Below, in pieces: positions 39,001 through 42,000 of a stretch of DNA of 64,000 nt. Position numbers: made by a program. Position 1 is the stretch's first letter. The number at the start of each line of letters is the position of its first letter. The stretch is taken from contig JAHRHZ010000263.1 of NCBI GenBank assembly GCA_024137785.1, forward strand, positions 13,408,438 through 13,472,437, given 5' to 3'. Source of the DNA: Ginglymostoma cirratum (taxonomy: Eukaryota).

Positions 39001-42000
39001 TTAAACTTAGTACTGAATATGTATTTTTCAGATGCAACATTCATATGGGAATGAAAGTGTGCCTTCTAAGCTTTTAAAATTCTGACTTGTGATTTTACTA
39101 CTTATCAGAAAGATTTACGGTGGAATATAATTTGAAACCGCCTTTTTCTCACAACAATAAAAGTGTAGCAACTCGTACCCATTCTTGTTTGCTGGAGCTA
39201 TTGCATAATTGTGCCTTTGTCCATGGAAGAAACTCTAGTTCTTCTGCATATCCCCAGTAATTTGAATAGGAGCTGGAAGGGGAGAAATTGCAGCCATTAT
39301 CTCCTAAGCAGTCCTTTCACTCTGATCGTAATTTCTTTCTTTTTCATTGTACAGCTATGCTTTTTGTTACAGTTCTGGACAGACTTCACATCTGACACTA
39401 TGTTTCTAGTGTACAGAGCAGCAGCATGTTCAACGCAAAGACTTTATTGAAGTGAAATTTAACACGTCTCCCTACAGGGCTTACTTCATGGTAAAGGGCA
39501 CATGAATACAGCAGACGAGGACAGATATCTGTACATAATTGCATTTCAATCCAAACAATTTACACCCCTGTTTTATCCTGAGTGCCCCTGACCATTGAAG
39601 TACCAACACTTTTGCTGTTCCTGAACCTTCCCAGATTGAAACCAGAGTGACATTTGCCTTGACCTCCCATTTGAGACATTTCAACCCTGTCCCTTATCCT
39701 ACCATTCTACTATCTTCAACTTCTCCCATGACTGTAACCATTCTCTCTTCAAGTGAATACTGCCAGGCCAGTCCCTGGACTTGTACAGCCTTACAATCTT
39801 GGTGAGCCATTGACAGACACCAGAAACACCCCGCTTTGGATTACGTTGGACCCACCCCTCAACTGAAATTGAAGATGACCGTTACTGACCAACCAGCAAG
39901 TTTCCCATCTCCCATTCACATATATTGCCATGCTTTTCATACCCATGCGCATTTTTTTGTCACACACCCTGCAGATACATTCACCATCAATGATGCAGTA
40001 CCATGTCCTTGAGAGGCATGTACCCAATTCCTTATACATTGACATTTCAATGTTTCCTATATCCACATACTACTGCCTTGACCTCTGCATTATTGTGTCC
40101 TTTTCAGGCACAAGGTTTGCCTCCTACAATAAGTCACCACCTATTTTACTTTCATTTTTGTGGGATGTGGGCGTCGCTGGCTGGCCAGCATTTATTGCCC
40201 ATCCCTAGTTGCCCTTGAGAAGGTGGTGGTGAGCTACCTTCTTGAACTGGTGCATCCCACCTGCTTTGGGTTGACCCACAATGTCGTGAGGGAGGAAATT
40301 CCTGGATTTTGTCCCAACGACAGTGAAGGAATGCTGATATATTTCCAAGTCAGGATGGTGAGTAACTTGGAGGAGAACTTGAAGCTGGTGGCGTTCCCAT
40401 GTATCTGCTGCCTTTGTCCTCCTAGATGGGAGTTGTTGTGAGTTTCTCCATTTGGCATCTGTATTTATGTTCTGATAGTTCAGATGGTCGATTGAAGCCT
40501 TGATCACACACAGAACATGTGTACCAGCTTCTCTCCACTGTGAATCGGGCTTTTTTCTTTCCATGTTGTTTAGGTAACAATATGCTGGATGGCCCTGTAA
40601 GATCCTGATGTGATGTTTGGTTTGGAGTTTTGTGACTACAAATTCATTCATTCTAAACTCTTGTTGAGCCTGTGCAATGAGCTGCTAGCTGCGAAACAAA
40701 AGTTGGTGTGCTAACTTTCCTCAATTGTCTGTAATGAGACAGAGACACATCTTGCCTTGATTCCCACAGTCACACCTCCTGCAGTTGTGGTGTTAACAGC
40801 AAAACTGAAGACCAGGACCCTTGAGAAGGATTCATTAGAGGTCATAGAGCTGCCCAAATTGGAGGCAGAAGAACAAAGTTGACAATTATATACTTGGTTA
40901 ATGCAGCTGTGCTTCTGAAGTATCGAGTAGCTCAATTGGGCCGAGTTATTTGTGAAGGGGAAGTTAATTCTGGCAAAATGTGCAAATAATGAGCTGCAAA
41001 TGCATACAGACTGGGTTCTTGCCACTTGATGGAGAGAGAAATATCTTGGCATCCAAGGAAGGAGGACTTAATTGTGAAAGTTTATCTTTGACAGCAAAAA
41101 TCTGGCTTTTTGGATCTCTGCCTGATTAAATCATCATGCTCACCGTTCTTCTCAACAGCTGAAAGAGGGGTAAAGCATGCTTTCAACTGGCACAAATGCA
41201 ATTAATCCTTTCAATGGCAATAATGAAAAGAGTTTCCAAAAGTGTTTTGATCTAAAAACACCAGTCTTTGAATCCAAAGTGTGGAGCTGGAGGAACACAG
41301 GCAGCATCAAAGGAGCAGGAAAGTTGACATTTCTGAAGAAGGGTCCTGACCCGAAACGTTAGCTTTCCTGCTCCTCCGATGCTGCCTGGCCTGCTGTGTT
41401 CCTCCAGCTTCACACTGTGTTCTCTCAGACTCCAGCATCGGCAGTTCTGGCTATTTCAGTCTTTGAATCCATTAGCTCTTCACAATTGGTTTGAGAGGTG
41501 AAGGTATGAAGGGAGAAAAGGGGGTTTGATAAAACAGTTTGGATCATGGATTATTCTTTACCTCTGCAACAATCCTGTTATTGCAGTAGGATTTGTCTTT
41601 AAAGAATGAAATACAATGTTACTTCATGTAATCCAGCAGTGTTTGACAGTGACGACAAGACAGTAGAGAATGAAAGTAGAGGTTGTGGTGTCCTTAACAA
41701 ATTTGGGTACCATATGGAAAAAAAAAGCATGTATTAACCTCAAGTGCTTAATTTAAACAGTGAATTTATTTGACTTCATCTAATGTTTTACAGCTTCAGA
41801 TTTACAAAAGGACTGAATCCCAGAGGCACAGAATCTGTCATATTACATTGTAATTAATTCCACCACTATTGCTGTGACTCTCACCTATGTTTGAGACCAG
41901 GAGTGTTGATGAGACAGTTTGCCCTCTGTATATATACCTGTGGGAACAGAATGTGCCAGAGATGTAAGTCTTTTCTTTGCTTAGTTGAGACAGGAAGGAA

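What the first reader, a model, noticed from the sequence alone, without database searches (positions are those of the whole stretch)
41262..41471. MITE-looking hairpins whose long variable TSDs indicate retrotransposition
Seen: flanking direct repeats differ in length and sequence. They are 15 bp perfect (41262/41457), 13 bp perfect (62637/62842), 16 bp (61066/61234), 13 bp with one mismatch (24619/24817; about 58762/59431), 8 bp (52163/52326) and 7 bp (37362/37495). Established: cut-and-paste MITEs make fixed-length TSDs, whereas target-primed reverse transcription makes variable ones. Inference: these are either extreme 5'-truncated and inverted Penelope insertions or a class of tiny non-autonomous ribozyme-bearing retroelements. 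About ten occur in 64 kb, so genome copy number may be very high.
Basis: partly seen in the sequence, partly recalled or inferred. Interest (0 to 1): 0.7.

Follow-up and report, generated by a model that had tools for sequence, protein, structure and literature searches.

The report
Truncated, inverted Penelope retrotransposon insertions
The small hairpin repeats are the stubs left when a Penelope-like retrotransposon of a shark-type genome copied only its last 60-130 bases, twice and head-to-head, into a staggered chromosome break; this is an ordinary, already described behaviour of these elements and not a new kind of mobile DNA.

Summary
They are 15, 13 and 16 bp perfect, 14 and 13 bp with one mismatch, and 8 bp perfect. 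The 7-bp pair lies inside its element and is not a target duplication.

[quoted passage not shown] That stretch is 93% identical to a whale-shark protein carrying reverse-transcriptase and GIY-YIG domains.

A profile search finds 12 loci in the 64 kb: 8 inverted and 4 single-arm. Inner junctions differ between copies, and the arms of one copy share private variants. A 33-nt "tail" is present on exactly one arm.

All of these traits are published PLE hallmarks: 5' truncation, an adjacent inverted copy, a one-sided 30-40 bp tail, variable target duplications and a minimal hammerhead motif.

The MITE reading and the "new tiny retroelement class" reading are not. Whether the inverted arm arises by priming on both strands or by fold-back stays open. 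Interest is low.

The parts
41262..41276 (.). Left copy of the 15-bp target-site duplication of the finding's element
   Evidence: Perfect 15/15 repeat with 41457-41471, and the only two occurrences in the window. A perfect flanking repeat of >=13 bp occurred in 1 of 3943 random pseudo-elements.
41277..41333 (-). Inverted (antisense) arm without the tail. It covers element positions about 974-1039 of the reference copy.
   Evidence: Local alignment to the long copy and alignment A1. It shares private variants with its partner arm.
41328..41456 (+). Sense arm, element positions about 949-1081. It overlaps the antisense arm by a 5-6 nt microhomology (ATTTC) at the junction.
41333..41360 (+). Minimal hammerhead-type motif: CUGAAGA box, bulged A, stem II, GAAAC, and ACGU-type short helix III
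   Evidence: The strict pattern has 4 matches in the window against 0 in 100 shuffles. Coordinates. Features compared with Cervera & de la Pena 2014.
41427..41456 (+). The 'tail': a 30-33 nt 3' extension present on this arm only
   Evidence: Alignment A1; coordinates. Matches the published one-sided 30-40 bp PLE tail.
41457..41471 (.). Right copy of the 15-bp target-site duplication
14480..15558 (-). Long antisense arm of a 1.6-kb inverted PLE insertion. It holds the tail (14480-14512), the hammerhead motif (14580-14607), a CT-rich 3' UTR, and the ORF C-terminus with the GIY-YIG endonuclease (14908-15351).
   Evidence: Inverted repeats of 376 nt (94%) and 151 nt (95%). Translation. 93% identity to a Rhincodon typus protein with RVT_1 and GIY-YIG.
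15559..16081 (+). Shorter sense arm of the same insertion. It has no tail and stops at the proximal end (..TTATCTC). Hammerhead motif at 15986-16013.
   Evidence: Flanked by an 11-bp repeat with 1 mismatch (14465-14475 / 16080-16090).
58780..58871 (-). Antisense arm without the tail, running into the N run. Its outer end is at the same nucleotide as the short end of the long copy.
   Evidence: The left copy of the duplication is at 58761-58774, followed by 5 extra bases.
59272..59429 (+). Right of the N run: two short antisense hammerhead pieces (59272-59297), then the sense arm with tail (59397-59429). The right copy of the duplication is at 59430-59443.
   Evidence: The 400 N between (58872-59271) were left as they are.
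61092..61233 (+). Single sense arm with an intact hammerhead motif (61107-61134) and tail (61201-61233). It is flanked by a perfect 16-bp duplication (61066-61081 / 61234-61249).
24632..24816 (.). Hairpin of an older PLE family. The antisense arm carries the tail (24632-24664) and the sense arm has none. The duplication is 13 bp with 1 mismatch (24619/24817).
62650..62841 (.). Hairpin of an older family. The antisense arm has no tail and the sense arm has one. Perfect 13-bp duplication (62637/62842).
52171..52325 (.). Older copy: a sense arm with tail plus a roughly 28-nt internal antisense piece with a small stutter. Perfect 8-bp duplication (52163/52326).
   Evidence: The antisense piece was read by eye.
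31146..31350 (.). Old, decayed hairpin: antisense arm 31146-31236 without tail, sense arm 31261-31350 with tail. No recognisable duplication.
1..98 (.). Hairpin cut by the window edge: antisense hammerhead piece at 1-19, sense arm at 17-98 without tail
37370..37517 (-). Single sense arm of an older family, with tail. It extends upstream of the hammerhead into UTR-like sequence.
   Evidence: No flanking repeat.
11244..11383 (+). Single sense arm of an older family, with tail
   Evidence: No flanking repeat.
42547..42625 (-). Weak 3'-terminal fragment with tail
   Evidence: nhmmer E = 8.9e-4; sequence.

Best explanation
The hairpins are dead-on-arrival insertions of canonical endonuclease-bearing Penelope-like retrotransposons. 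By its endonuclease motifs the element is Neptune/Nematis-type. The host is a cartilaginous fish, probably an orectolobiform shark.

Shown:
- Each hairpin is two copies of the element's last 60-130 nt, placed head-to-head with the 3' ends outward.
- Each hairpin is flanked by one direct target duplication of 8-16 bp.
- The two arms of a copy come from the same template.
- One arm ends at the distal 3' end, with a 33-nt tail. The other ends at or near a proximal site 33 nt inside.
- Inner junctions differ from copy to copy.

Inferred mechanism:
1. The element's GIY-YIG endonuclease makes staggered cuts whose spacing varies. That spacing sets the length of the duplication.
2. Reverse transcription of the element's RNA is primed from the cut DNA at internal start sites near the RNA's 3' end.
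3. Synthesis aborts within about 100 nt, around the hammerhead motif.
4. A second, inverted arm is made. Either the other DNA strand primes a second cDNA from the proximal start site and the two cDNA ends anneal by microhomology, which I slightly favour. Or the nascent cDNA folds back and copies itself.

The copies have no function of their own. Older ones have decayed hammerhead cores.
For: Sequence continuity with an autonomous-type copy:
- The arms of the young family align at 80-94% to the 3' end of the 1.6-kb inverted copy at 14480-16081.
- The antisense arm of that copy encodes 148 aa that are 93% identical (137/147) to Rhincodon typus LOC125484857.
- Pfam finds a partial RVT_1 and a GIY-YIG above cut-off (23.2 against 22.6 bits) in that shark protein.
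- The window ORF shows C-x4-C-x2-C upstream of the core and cysteines between VVY and YI(G>R). Craig et al. 2021 give these as marks of PLE endonucleases and of Neptune/Nematis.

Retrotransposition signature:
- 7 of 9 loci tested have flanking repeats of 8-16 bp. Random pseudo-elements reach each of these lengths in at most 7 of 3943 cases.
- 5' ends vary, at reference positions 1, 480, 949, 954, 960 and 974.
- 4 of 12 loci are single arms with the same 3' end.

De novo formation from one template:
- Junctions differ in every copy where they can be read.
- 3 of 3 same-copy arm pairs share at least one private variant, against 3 of 25 other pairs.
- The long copy's arms are 94-95% complementary over 527 nt.

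Tail:
- In 6 of 6 hairpins with both ends alignable, exactly one arm has the tail.
- 4 of 4 single arms have it.
- Tailless arms of two young copies stop at the same nucleotide, and those of two older families stop at the same alignment column.

Hammerhead: the strict minimal pattern has 4 matches against 0 in 100 shuffles.

Published PLE hallmarks that match:
- Strong 5' truncation, an adjacent inverted 5'-truncated copy, and a 30-40 bp tail at one end only (Craig 2021; Arkhipova 2013; Goubert 2022).
- Variable duplication length set by the variable distance between first- and second-strand cuts.
- Duplications of 8, 9, 10 or 0 bp in Adineta.
- The purified Anolis PLE protein cuts and extends both strands and starts reverse transcription at two internal sites, with the tail lying between them (Frangieh 2024).
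- Minimal hammerheads in PLE terminal repeats, sometimes paired on opposite strands 100-700 bp apart (Cervera & de la Pena 2014).
Against: - No full-length PLE lies in the window, so the link to an autonomous element rests on one 5'-truncated copy and a protein from another record.
- The window's own ORF piece reaches Pfam GIY-YIG only at E = 0.02, below the cut-off. It is frameshifted and has YIR in place of YIG.
- Rfam finds no hammerhead, either at gathering score over the whole window or at E <= 10 on two copies. The ribozyme call therefore rests on motif features only.
- Inner ends cluster near the hammerhead in 7 of 8 inverted copies, and three sense arms start at reference 949-951. A discrete short template RNA could produce that.
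- For the finding's own copy, the antisense arm is no closer to its partner (52/61) than to two other copies (53/61).
- Two single-arm copies (11244-11383 and 37370-37517) gave no flanking repeat. The decayed hairpin 31146-31350 shows none either.
- The antisense piece at 52171 does not start at either 3' site.

On the sub-mechanism:
- The tailless arm reaches further inward than the tailed arm in 2 copies (24632, 31146), which a simple fold-back of the tail-primed cDNA does not predict.
- The strict one-tail-per-insertion pattern is not predicted by two independent start-site choices either.
Confidence: 0.9

Rival explanations
1. A separate family of tiny non-autonomous, ribozyme-bearing retroelements. 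It would be retrozyme-like or SINE-like, would be transcribed as a short hairpin or short RNA, and would amplify as a unit using PLE proteins in trans.
For: - Inner ends cluster at the hammerhead in 7 of 8 inverted copies.
- Three sense arms begin at reference 949-951.
- Animal non-LTR retrozymes are reported to derive from PLE terminal repeats and occur in one sampled chondrichthyan (bioRxiv 10.64898/2026.07.22.740005).
- Non-autonomous PLE derivatives sharing 3' ends with autonomous families exist in Chlamydomonas.
Against: - Junction positions and loop sequences differ in every copy.
- One copy with the same ends runs 1.08 kb into the ORF.
- The arms of a copy share private variants rather than family-wide arm-specific differences.
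- There are no tandem direct units. Tandem Repeats Finder found only one 14-nt array in 64 kb, and no two same-strand copies adjoin.
- The sample is 12 loci only.
Confidence: 0.07
2. Miniature inverted-repeat DNA transposons (MITEs) moved by a cut-and-paste transposase.
For: The element has a hairpin shape (z = -9.9), is short (about 155-205 bp) and has flanking direct repeats.
Against: - The repeats vary from 8 to 16 bp.
- The two ends are unequal by 33 nt, so the inverted repeat does not reach one terminus.
- 4 of 12 loci have a single arm with the same 3' end.
- The arms are the 3' end of an RT/GIY-YIG element.
- None of 72 ORFs scanned, out of 84 ORFs of >=90 aa, hit a transposase family. 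The 12 left out overlap the N run or PLE copies.
Confidence: 0.01
3. Each hairpin is two independent PLE insertions, the second landing head-to-head in or beside the first because the endonuclease prefers its own sequence.
For: [quoted passage not shown] PLE copies are dense here, at about 5% of the window.
Against: - A single duplication brackets the whole hairpin, and no second duplication brackets one arm.
- Arms share private variants in 3 of 3 pairs.
- The strict pairing of one tailed with one tailless arm in 6 of 6 hairpins is not expected from independent events.
Confidence: 0.02

Closest known systems
Canonical EN+ Penelope-like elements, Neptune/Nematis type (Arkhipova 2006 as cited in Craig et al. 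2021, PMC8557442)
   Same: [quoted passage not shown]
- A C-x4-C-x2-C linker motif.
- Strong 5' truncation.
- Adjacent inverted 5'-truncated copies.
- A one-sided 30-40 bp tail (33 nt here).
- Variable target duplications.
- A hammerhead motif in the terminal region.
   Different: - Only truncated copies are in the window.
- No direct partial tandem (pLTR) is seen.
- Clade assignment rests on two motifs, not on an RT tree.
- Most copies here are extreme, with arms of 60-130 nt.
PAc, the Poseidon element of Anolis carolinensis (Frangieh et al. 2024, PMC11167929)
   Same: - The tail is bounded by two discrete 3' ends, in line with two internal reverse-transcription start sites.
- The start sites lie some 70-100 nt downstream of the predicted hammerhead cut. 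In PAc the figure is about 85-92 nt, from the numbers given in the text.
- Both DNA strands are extended in vitro, which would give head-to-head arms.
   Different: - It belongs to a different clade. Poseidon lacks the CX2-5CxxC linker according to Craig 2021.
- In vitro, both start sites were used on both strands. Here every insertion has exactly one tailed end.
- Nothing was tested biochemically here.
Pen2a_Av and related Penelope copies of Adineta vaga (Arkhipova et al. 2013, PMC3846280)
   Same: - Inverted terminal repeats with a 31-bp tail on one of them.
- Duplications of 8-10 bp or none.
- Microhomology at junctions.
- Palindromes at the inverted junction, read there as self-priming.
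   Different: Those are full or long copies with the ORF between the repeats. Here the ORF is missing and the two inverted ends abut.
Minimal hammerhead ribozymes of metazoan PLEs (Cervera & de la Pena 2014, PMC4209133)
   Same: - CUGANGA and GAAA boxes.
[quoted passage not shown]
- A G10.1-C11.1 pair.
- Palindromic 15.2-16.2 (ACGU) with no real helix III.
- Single dispersed motifs, and pairs on opposite strands.
   Different: - Helix II is about 4 bp here against 6-8 bp in the Schistosoma families.
- Cleavage was not tested.
- Rfam models do not recognise it.
Animal non-LTR retrozymes (bioRxiv 10.64898/2026.07.22.740005)
   Same: A type I hammerhead, a PLE-derived sequence and no coding capacity.
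   Different: Retrozymes are defined by direct tandem units, each with a hammerhead. Here the units are inverted pairs or singletons bracketed by target duplications.
L1 'twin priming' inversions (recalled: Ostertag & Kazazian 2001; not read here)
   Same: A second priming event on the other DNA strand, an inverted 5' part, and microhomology at the junction.
   Different: In L1 the two parts cover different segments of one RNA. Here both arms cover the same 3'-terminal segment, so both start near the RNA's 3' end.

Membership tests
Penelope-like elements (canonical EN+) | A single ORF with a reverse transcriptase followed by a C-terminal GIY-YIG endonuclease | tested here: met
   The window holds only the linker and endonuclease part (14908-15351, minus strand). 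Its 93%-identical relative P0001 has a partial RVT_1 and GIY-YIG at 23.2 bits against a cut-off of 22.6. The window piece alone scores E = 0.02, below the cut-off.
Penelope-like elements (canonical EN+) | [quoted passage not shown] | tested here: met
   VVY-C-x2-C-x2-C-x3-YI(R; G in P0001), followed by histidines in AEH..H. The motif was read by eye, not scored by a model.
Neptune/Nematis clades of PLEs | An additional CX2-5CxxC motif in the linker upstream of GIY-YIG, absent in Penelope/Poseidon | tested here: met
   C-NRRK-C-YT-C is present at the start of the 148-aa piece and in P0001.
Neptune/Nematis clades of PLEs | Placement in an RT phylogeny | not tested
   There is no RT sequence of this element in the window and no named reference set at hand.
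Penelope-like elements (insertion anatomy) | Frequent 5' truncation with a constant 3' end | tested here: met
   Inner ends lie at reference positions 1, 480, 949, 954, 960 and 974. The 3' ends are shared.
Penelope-like elements (insertion anatomy) | An inverted 5'-truncated copy adjacent, head-to-head | tested here: met
   8 of 12 loci.
Penelope-like elements (insertion anatomy) | [quoted passage not shown] | tested here: met
   A 33-nt tail sits on exactly one arm in 6 of 6 hairpins with both ends alignable.
Penelope-like elements (insertion anatomy) | A target-site duplication of variable length | tested here: met
   8, 11, 13, 13, 14, 15 and 16 bp, with the null.
Penelope-like elements (insertion anatomy) | A direct partial tandem forming a pseudo-LTR | tested here: inconclusive
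   There are no direct tandem copies in the window. The feature belongs to full-length insertions, and none is present here.
Minimal hammerhead ribozyme of PLEs | Conserved core boxes CUGANGA ... GAAA, with G10.1-C11.1 closing helix II | tested here: met
   4 exact matches to a strict pattern against 0 in 100 shuffles. The core is decayed in older copies.
Minimal hammerhead ribozyme of PLEs | [quoted passage not shown] | tested here: met
   An A follows CUGANGA in all young copies. ACGU is present in 4 arms and is changed at the CpG in the others.
Minimal hammerhead ribozyme of PLEs | Self-cleavage, as a dimer | not testable with these tools
Rfam hammerhead models give no match.
Non-LTR retrozymes | Direct tandem repeat units, each with a type I hammerhead (definition) | tested here: not met
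   There is no such array. The copies are inverted pairs or singletons.
MITEs | Terminal inverted repeats reaching both ends, and a duplication of fixed length | tested here: not met
   The ends are unequal by 33 nt. Duplications are 8-16 bp.

The most novel reading that the evidence does not exclude
In these shark PLE families every insertion lays down exactly one tailed 3' end, and the inverted arm always begins at the proximal site 33 nt inside. The two published start sites would then be used in a fixed, coupled way, for example by the two halves of a dimeric particle, rather than as independent alternatives.

In addition, the head-to-head junction would form preferentially at the hammerhead motif. 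Its self-complementary segments (AUUUC...GAAAU and stem II) would act at the DNA level as the annealing or fold-back point. That would give the ribozyme sequence a role in shaping insertions apart from RNA cleavage.
Probability: 0.2. Interest if true: 0.45.

Novelty: already known. Interest (0 to 1): 0.2.

Why it matters
For genome annotation, these stubs look like MITEs or microRNA-type hairpins. Rfam at a lax threshold gives only weak miRNA-precursor hits. About 5% of this window is made of them. They should be filed as PLE 3' ends, and insertions should be counted by 3' ends as Craig et al. do.

They also break assemblies. The only N run of the window sits inside one of them, and Craig et al. 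note that such tandem/inverted structures cause assembly problems.

For PLE biology, short copies with both ends and the junction in about 200 bp are a compact natural record of the integration reaction. A genome-wide table of end combinations and junctions could discriminate between priming on both strands and fold-back synthesis.

Tried and rejected
- Rfam at gathering score over the whole window gave 0 matches.
- Rfam at E <= 10 on 41200-41520 and 61060-61250 gave only weak miRNA and snoRNA hits, all far below gathering scores, and no hammerhead. I read these as generic hairpin matches, not as miRNA genes.
- Pfam on 18 and then 54 ORFs found no transposase. It found GIY-YIG only when the exact frame piece was given.
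- NCBIfam on 5 ORFs gave only weak group-II-intron RT similarity for the LINE-like RT.
- I tested whether the RT fragments at 56849-57405 belong to a PLE. There was no similarity to a PLE protein, so they do not.
- I tested whether the tail is a tandem duplicate of the preceding 34 nt. It scored above shuffles in 4 of 7 arms (p 0.002-0.034) and not in 3 of 7 (p 0.71-0.99), so the result is suggestive only.
- AT-richness of the duplications is 59/90 = 66% against 59% for the window. This is too small a sample to claim the AT preference reported for PAc.
- A simple fold-back model predicts that the tailed arm always reaches further inward. That holds in 2 copies, is reversed in 2 and is ambiguous in 2, so it is rejected as a sufficient explanation.
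- The genome-contig collection was not scanned because it holds only bacteria and archaea. The phage, plasmid and E. coli collections were not searched for the same reason.
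Full report
**1. What is at the coordinates**

Window 41262-41471 holds a 180-bp element (41277-41456). It is bracketed by a perfect 15-bp direct repeat that occurs nowhere else in the window. The element folds into a long imperfect hairpin: -102.9 kcal/mol, z = -9.9, and 0 of 200 shuffles fold as well.

The hairpin is not symmetric.
- The left arm (41277-41333) is the reverse complement of only part of the right arm (41328-41456).
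- The right arm continues about 30 nt beyond the point where the inverted repeat ends.
- At the apex, on the + strand, lies CUGAAGA-A-GGGUCCUGACCC-GAAAC-GUU (41333-41360).

**2.

All seven pairs are at or next to the stated positions. As a null I scored 3943 random pseudo-elements of 120-210 bp with the same tolerance at the ends.

| Flanking repeat | Random pseudo-elements reaching it |
|---|---|
| Perfect, >=13 bp | 1 of 3943 |
| Perfect, >=8 bp | 7 of 3943 |
| One mismatch, >=13 bp | 1 of 3943 |
| One mismatch, >=11 bp | 7 of 3943 |

Six pairs stand: 15, 13 and 16 bp perfect, 14 and 13 bp with one mismatch, and 8 bp perfect.

The 7-bp pair at 37362/37495 does not stand. The word occurs 13 times in the window, and its right copy lies inside the element, which runs to at least 37512.

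I found one further pair around the long copy described below: 11 bp with one mismatch.

In two copies a few extra bases sit between the duplication and the element end: 5 nt at 58775-58779 and 4 nt at 14476-14479. At 61082-61096 about 15 nt partly re-duplicate the target.

**3. What the arms are**

BLAST and a profile built from the arms find 18 significant hits that group into 12 loci. One hit at E = 0.41 was dropped. Ten of the rows were used to build the profile, so only the others are independent finds.

The key locus is 14480-16081. It is an inverted repeat with arms 94-95% complementary over 376 + 151 nt. Its outer ends are the same sequences as the small hairpins.

The longer, antisense arm of this locus runs 1.08 kb inward, through a CT-rich untranslated stretch into an ORF end. 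I searched only one uninterrupted 148-aa frame piece of this frameshifted ORF and did not join frames.
- The piece is 93% identical (137/147) to a Rhincodon typus protein and 85% identical to one of Stegostoma tigrinum.
- The whale-shark protein has a partial RVT_1 and a GIY-YIG domain above Pfam's cut-off. The window piece itself reaches only E = 0.02.
- The piece has C-x4-C-x2-C in the linker and cysteines between the two halves of the GIY-YIG core. Craig et al. 2021 (passages) give these as marks of PLE endonucleases and of the Neptune/Nematis clades.
- The window copy is decayed. It is frameshifted and has YIR where the relative has YIG.

The host is therefore very likely an orectolobiform shark. 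It is not human: PLEs and their hammerheads are reported absent from mammals.

**4. Anatomy across copies**

As the coordinate system I use the long antisense arm, that is the reverse complement of 14470-15560.

| Feature | Reference position |
|---|---|
| Hammerhead boxes | 954-978 |
| Proximal 3' end | 1048 |
| Distal 3' end | 1081 |
| Tail | 1049-1081 (33 nt) |

(a) Eight loci are head-to-head pairs with the 3' ends outward. Four are single sense arms.

(b) In 6 of 6 hairpins whose two outer ends are alignable, exactly one arm has the tail. These are 14480-16081, 24632-24816, 31146-31350, 41277-41456, 58780-59429 and 62650-62841.
- All 4 single arms have the tail.
- Independent choices could give 6 of 6 mixed pairs with probability at most 0.5^6 = 0.016 (my arithmetic).
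- The tailless arms of two young copies stop at the same nucleotide.
- Those of two older families stop at the same alignment column.
- That of the finding's copy stops about 9 nt earlier.
- The edge copy cannot be judged because its other arm is off the window.
- The antisense piece at 52171 is a 28-nt internal fragment that starts at neither site.

(c) Inner junctions differ between copies.

| Copy | Antisense arm reaches / sense arm starts | Note |
|---|---|---|
| 14480-16081 (long) | 1 / 480 | |
| 41277-41456 | 974 / 949 | 5-nt ATTTC overlap |
| Edge (1-98) | 954 / 960 | 6-nt loop between perfect 11-nt arms |
| 58780-59429 | about 953 / 950 | 12-nt stutter, just right of the N run |

Other positions apply in the three older hairpins.

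(d) The arms of one copy share private variants in 3 of 3 pairs (1, 2 and 1 sites), against 3 of 25 other pairs. By my arithmetic the hypergeometric p is about 0.006. Against this, the finding's antisense arm is 52/61 identical to its partner and 53/61 identical to two other copies.

(e) Older copies have lost the hammerhead boxes, often at CpG sites. Nothing suggests selection after insertion.

**5. Comparison with the literature**

- Craig et al. 2021 (passages) describe a high degree of 5' truncation. They also describe an inverted 5'-truncated copy immediately adjacent, a 30-40 bp tail often at only one end, assembly problems caused by these structures, and duplication length set by the variable distance between first- and second-strand cuts.
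- Arkhipova et al. 2013 (passages) describe inverted terminal repeats with a 31-bp tail on one of them in Adineta. They also report duplications of 8, 9, 10 or 0 bp, microhomology junctions, and palindromes at inverted junctions read as self-priming.
- Frangieh et al. 2024 (abstract and whole main text) studied the purified Anolis PLE protein. It cuts and extends both strands and starts reverse transcription at two internal sites of the RNA that are not homologous to the target. The tail is the stretch between the two sites.
- Cervera & de la Pena 2014 (parts 1-2 of 4) define minimal hammerheads in PLE terminal repeats. The features are CUGANGA/GAAA boxes, an extra base after position 9, a G10.1-C11.1 pair, and palindromic 15.2-16.2 with no helix III. 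They see mostly single dispersed motifs 'probably related to truncated PLEs', and pairs on opposite strands 100-700 bp apart.
- Goubert et al. 2022 (passages) list inverted pLTRs and short 3' extensions as PLE peculiarities.
- The dimer-cleavage study of Lünse, Weinberg and Breaker 2017 is recalled only. Its title phrase appears in other papers' texts, and I did not read it.

The motif here meets the sequence features. The strict pattern gives 4 matches against 0 in 100 shuffles. Helix II is about 4 bp, and Rfam's hammerhead models do not see it.

**6. Mechanism**

Shown: one event per hairpin, one template, 3' ends outward, a variable stagger, discrete outer ends and variable inner ends.

Inferred: target-primed reverse transcription that aborts early, plus formation of a second inverted arm. 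Two sub-models fit.

- *Priming on both strands.* Each 3'-OH of a staggered break primes a cDNA, and the two cDNA ends join by microhomology. This model gives outward 3' ends and a direct duplication, and lets either arm be the longer one. It also has in-vitro support. It does not by itself explain why exactly one end is tailed.
- *Fold-back of the nascent cDNA.* This model explains the small loops and the microhomology. It predicts that the tailed arm reaches further inward. That is true in 2 copies, reversed in 2 and ambiguous in 2.

I favour the first slightly, at roughly 0.5 against 0.35, with the rest for other routes.

**7. Rivals**

- A self-amplifying hairpin or retrozyme-like family is unlikely here. 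Junctions are unique, and there are no tandem units, which is how the 2026 preprint defines non-LTR retrozymes (sections 3 and 14). The clustering of inner ends near the hammerhead in 7 of 8 inverted copies keeps it from being excluded. That clustering may also reflect a steep truncation profile and the minimum length needed for detection.
- MITEs are excluded by the variable duplications and the unequal ends. None of the 72 ORFs scanned, out of 84, has a transposase domain.
- Two independent insertions are unlikely, given the single bracketing duplication and the shared private variants.

**8. Limits**

Extrapolating 12 loci per 64 kb to the genome is not justified from one window.

Paper supplements were closed. 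Those of Cervera 2014, Frangieh 2024 and the 2026 preprint may bear on the shark families and on genomic end positions.

The centre of the copy at 58780-59429 is hidden by 400 N, which I left as they are.

**9. Verdict**

The object is an ordinary, published behaviour of Penelope-like elements seen in a shark-type genome. Interest is low (0.2). The modest residual interest lies in using such mini-insertions to constrain the still unsettled PLE integration mechanism.

Noticed in passing
window 58872-59271 with flanks 58861-58871 and 59272-59282: The only N run of the window (400 N) lies inside the antisense arm of an inverted PLE insertion. The 11 bases before the run recur as the first 11 bases after it. 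This fits the published remark that such palindromic insertions break assemblies. The run was neither filled nor looked up.
   Followed up: partly
window 56562-58310, minus strand: A LINE-like retrotransposon fragment. Two ORF pieces hit Pfam RVT_1 above the cut-off (42 and 46.9 bits) and contain an ADD-type motif. A 311-aa ORF upstream has no family hit. There is no similarity to a PLE protein. The strong negative GC skew at 56-58 kb coincides with it.
   Followed up: partly
window 19434-19982, plus strand: A weak reverse-transcriptase similarity (RVT_1, E = 0.005, 17 bits, below the cut-off), probably another decayed retroelement. GC skew is strongly positive at 18-22 kb.
   Followed up: no
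reference positions 1015-1081 of the element, e.g. window 61167-61233 and 14480-14546: The 33-nt tail resembles a diverged tandem duplicate of the preceding ~34 nt. Both contain TCCAGC and, in the young family, both end in TTATCTC. It scores above shuffles in 4 of 7 arms (p 0.002-0.034) and not in 3 of 7. This would fit two start sites sharing one recognition module.
   Followed up: partly
young-family sense arms, from the ATG about 18 nt downstream of the predicted hammerhead cut to the tail end (e.g. window 59345-59429): Read by eye from alignment A1: a frame opening at this ATG stays open through the tail in the young copies. In Adineta and Anolis PLEs the terminal repeat contains the start of the ORF, so this may be the N-terminus of the element's protein. 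Not tested.
   Followed up: no
window 61082-61096: Between the left 16-bp duplication and the element lie about 15 nt that repeat the first 11 bases of the target once more (61083-61093). This is a small extra duplication at the 5' junction.
   Followed up: no
hammerhead motifs at 14580-14607, 15986-16013, 59302-59329: The ACGU palindrome of the short helix III is changed to ACAU (or AUGU on the other arm) in several copies, and G12 is changed in one. These are typical CpG decay and show that the copies are not maintained.
   Followed up: no
window 41279-41415: At a lax threshold Rfam reports weak plant and animal microRNA-precursor matches to the hairpin (best 37.8 bits against a gathering score of 135). 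These are generic long-hairpin matches, and automated pipelines could mislabel such stubs as miRNA genes.
   Followed up: yes
window 58534-58568: The only tandem array found in 64 kb: a 14-nt unit in 2.6 copies.
   Followed up: no
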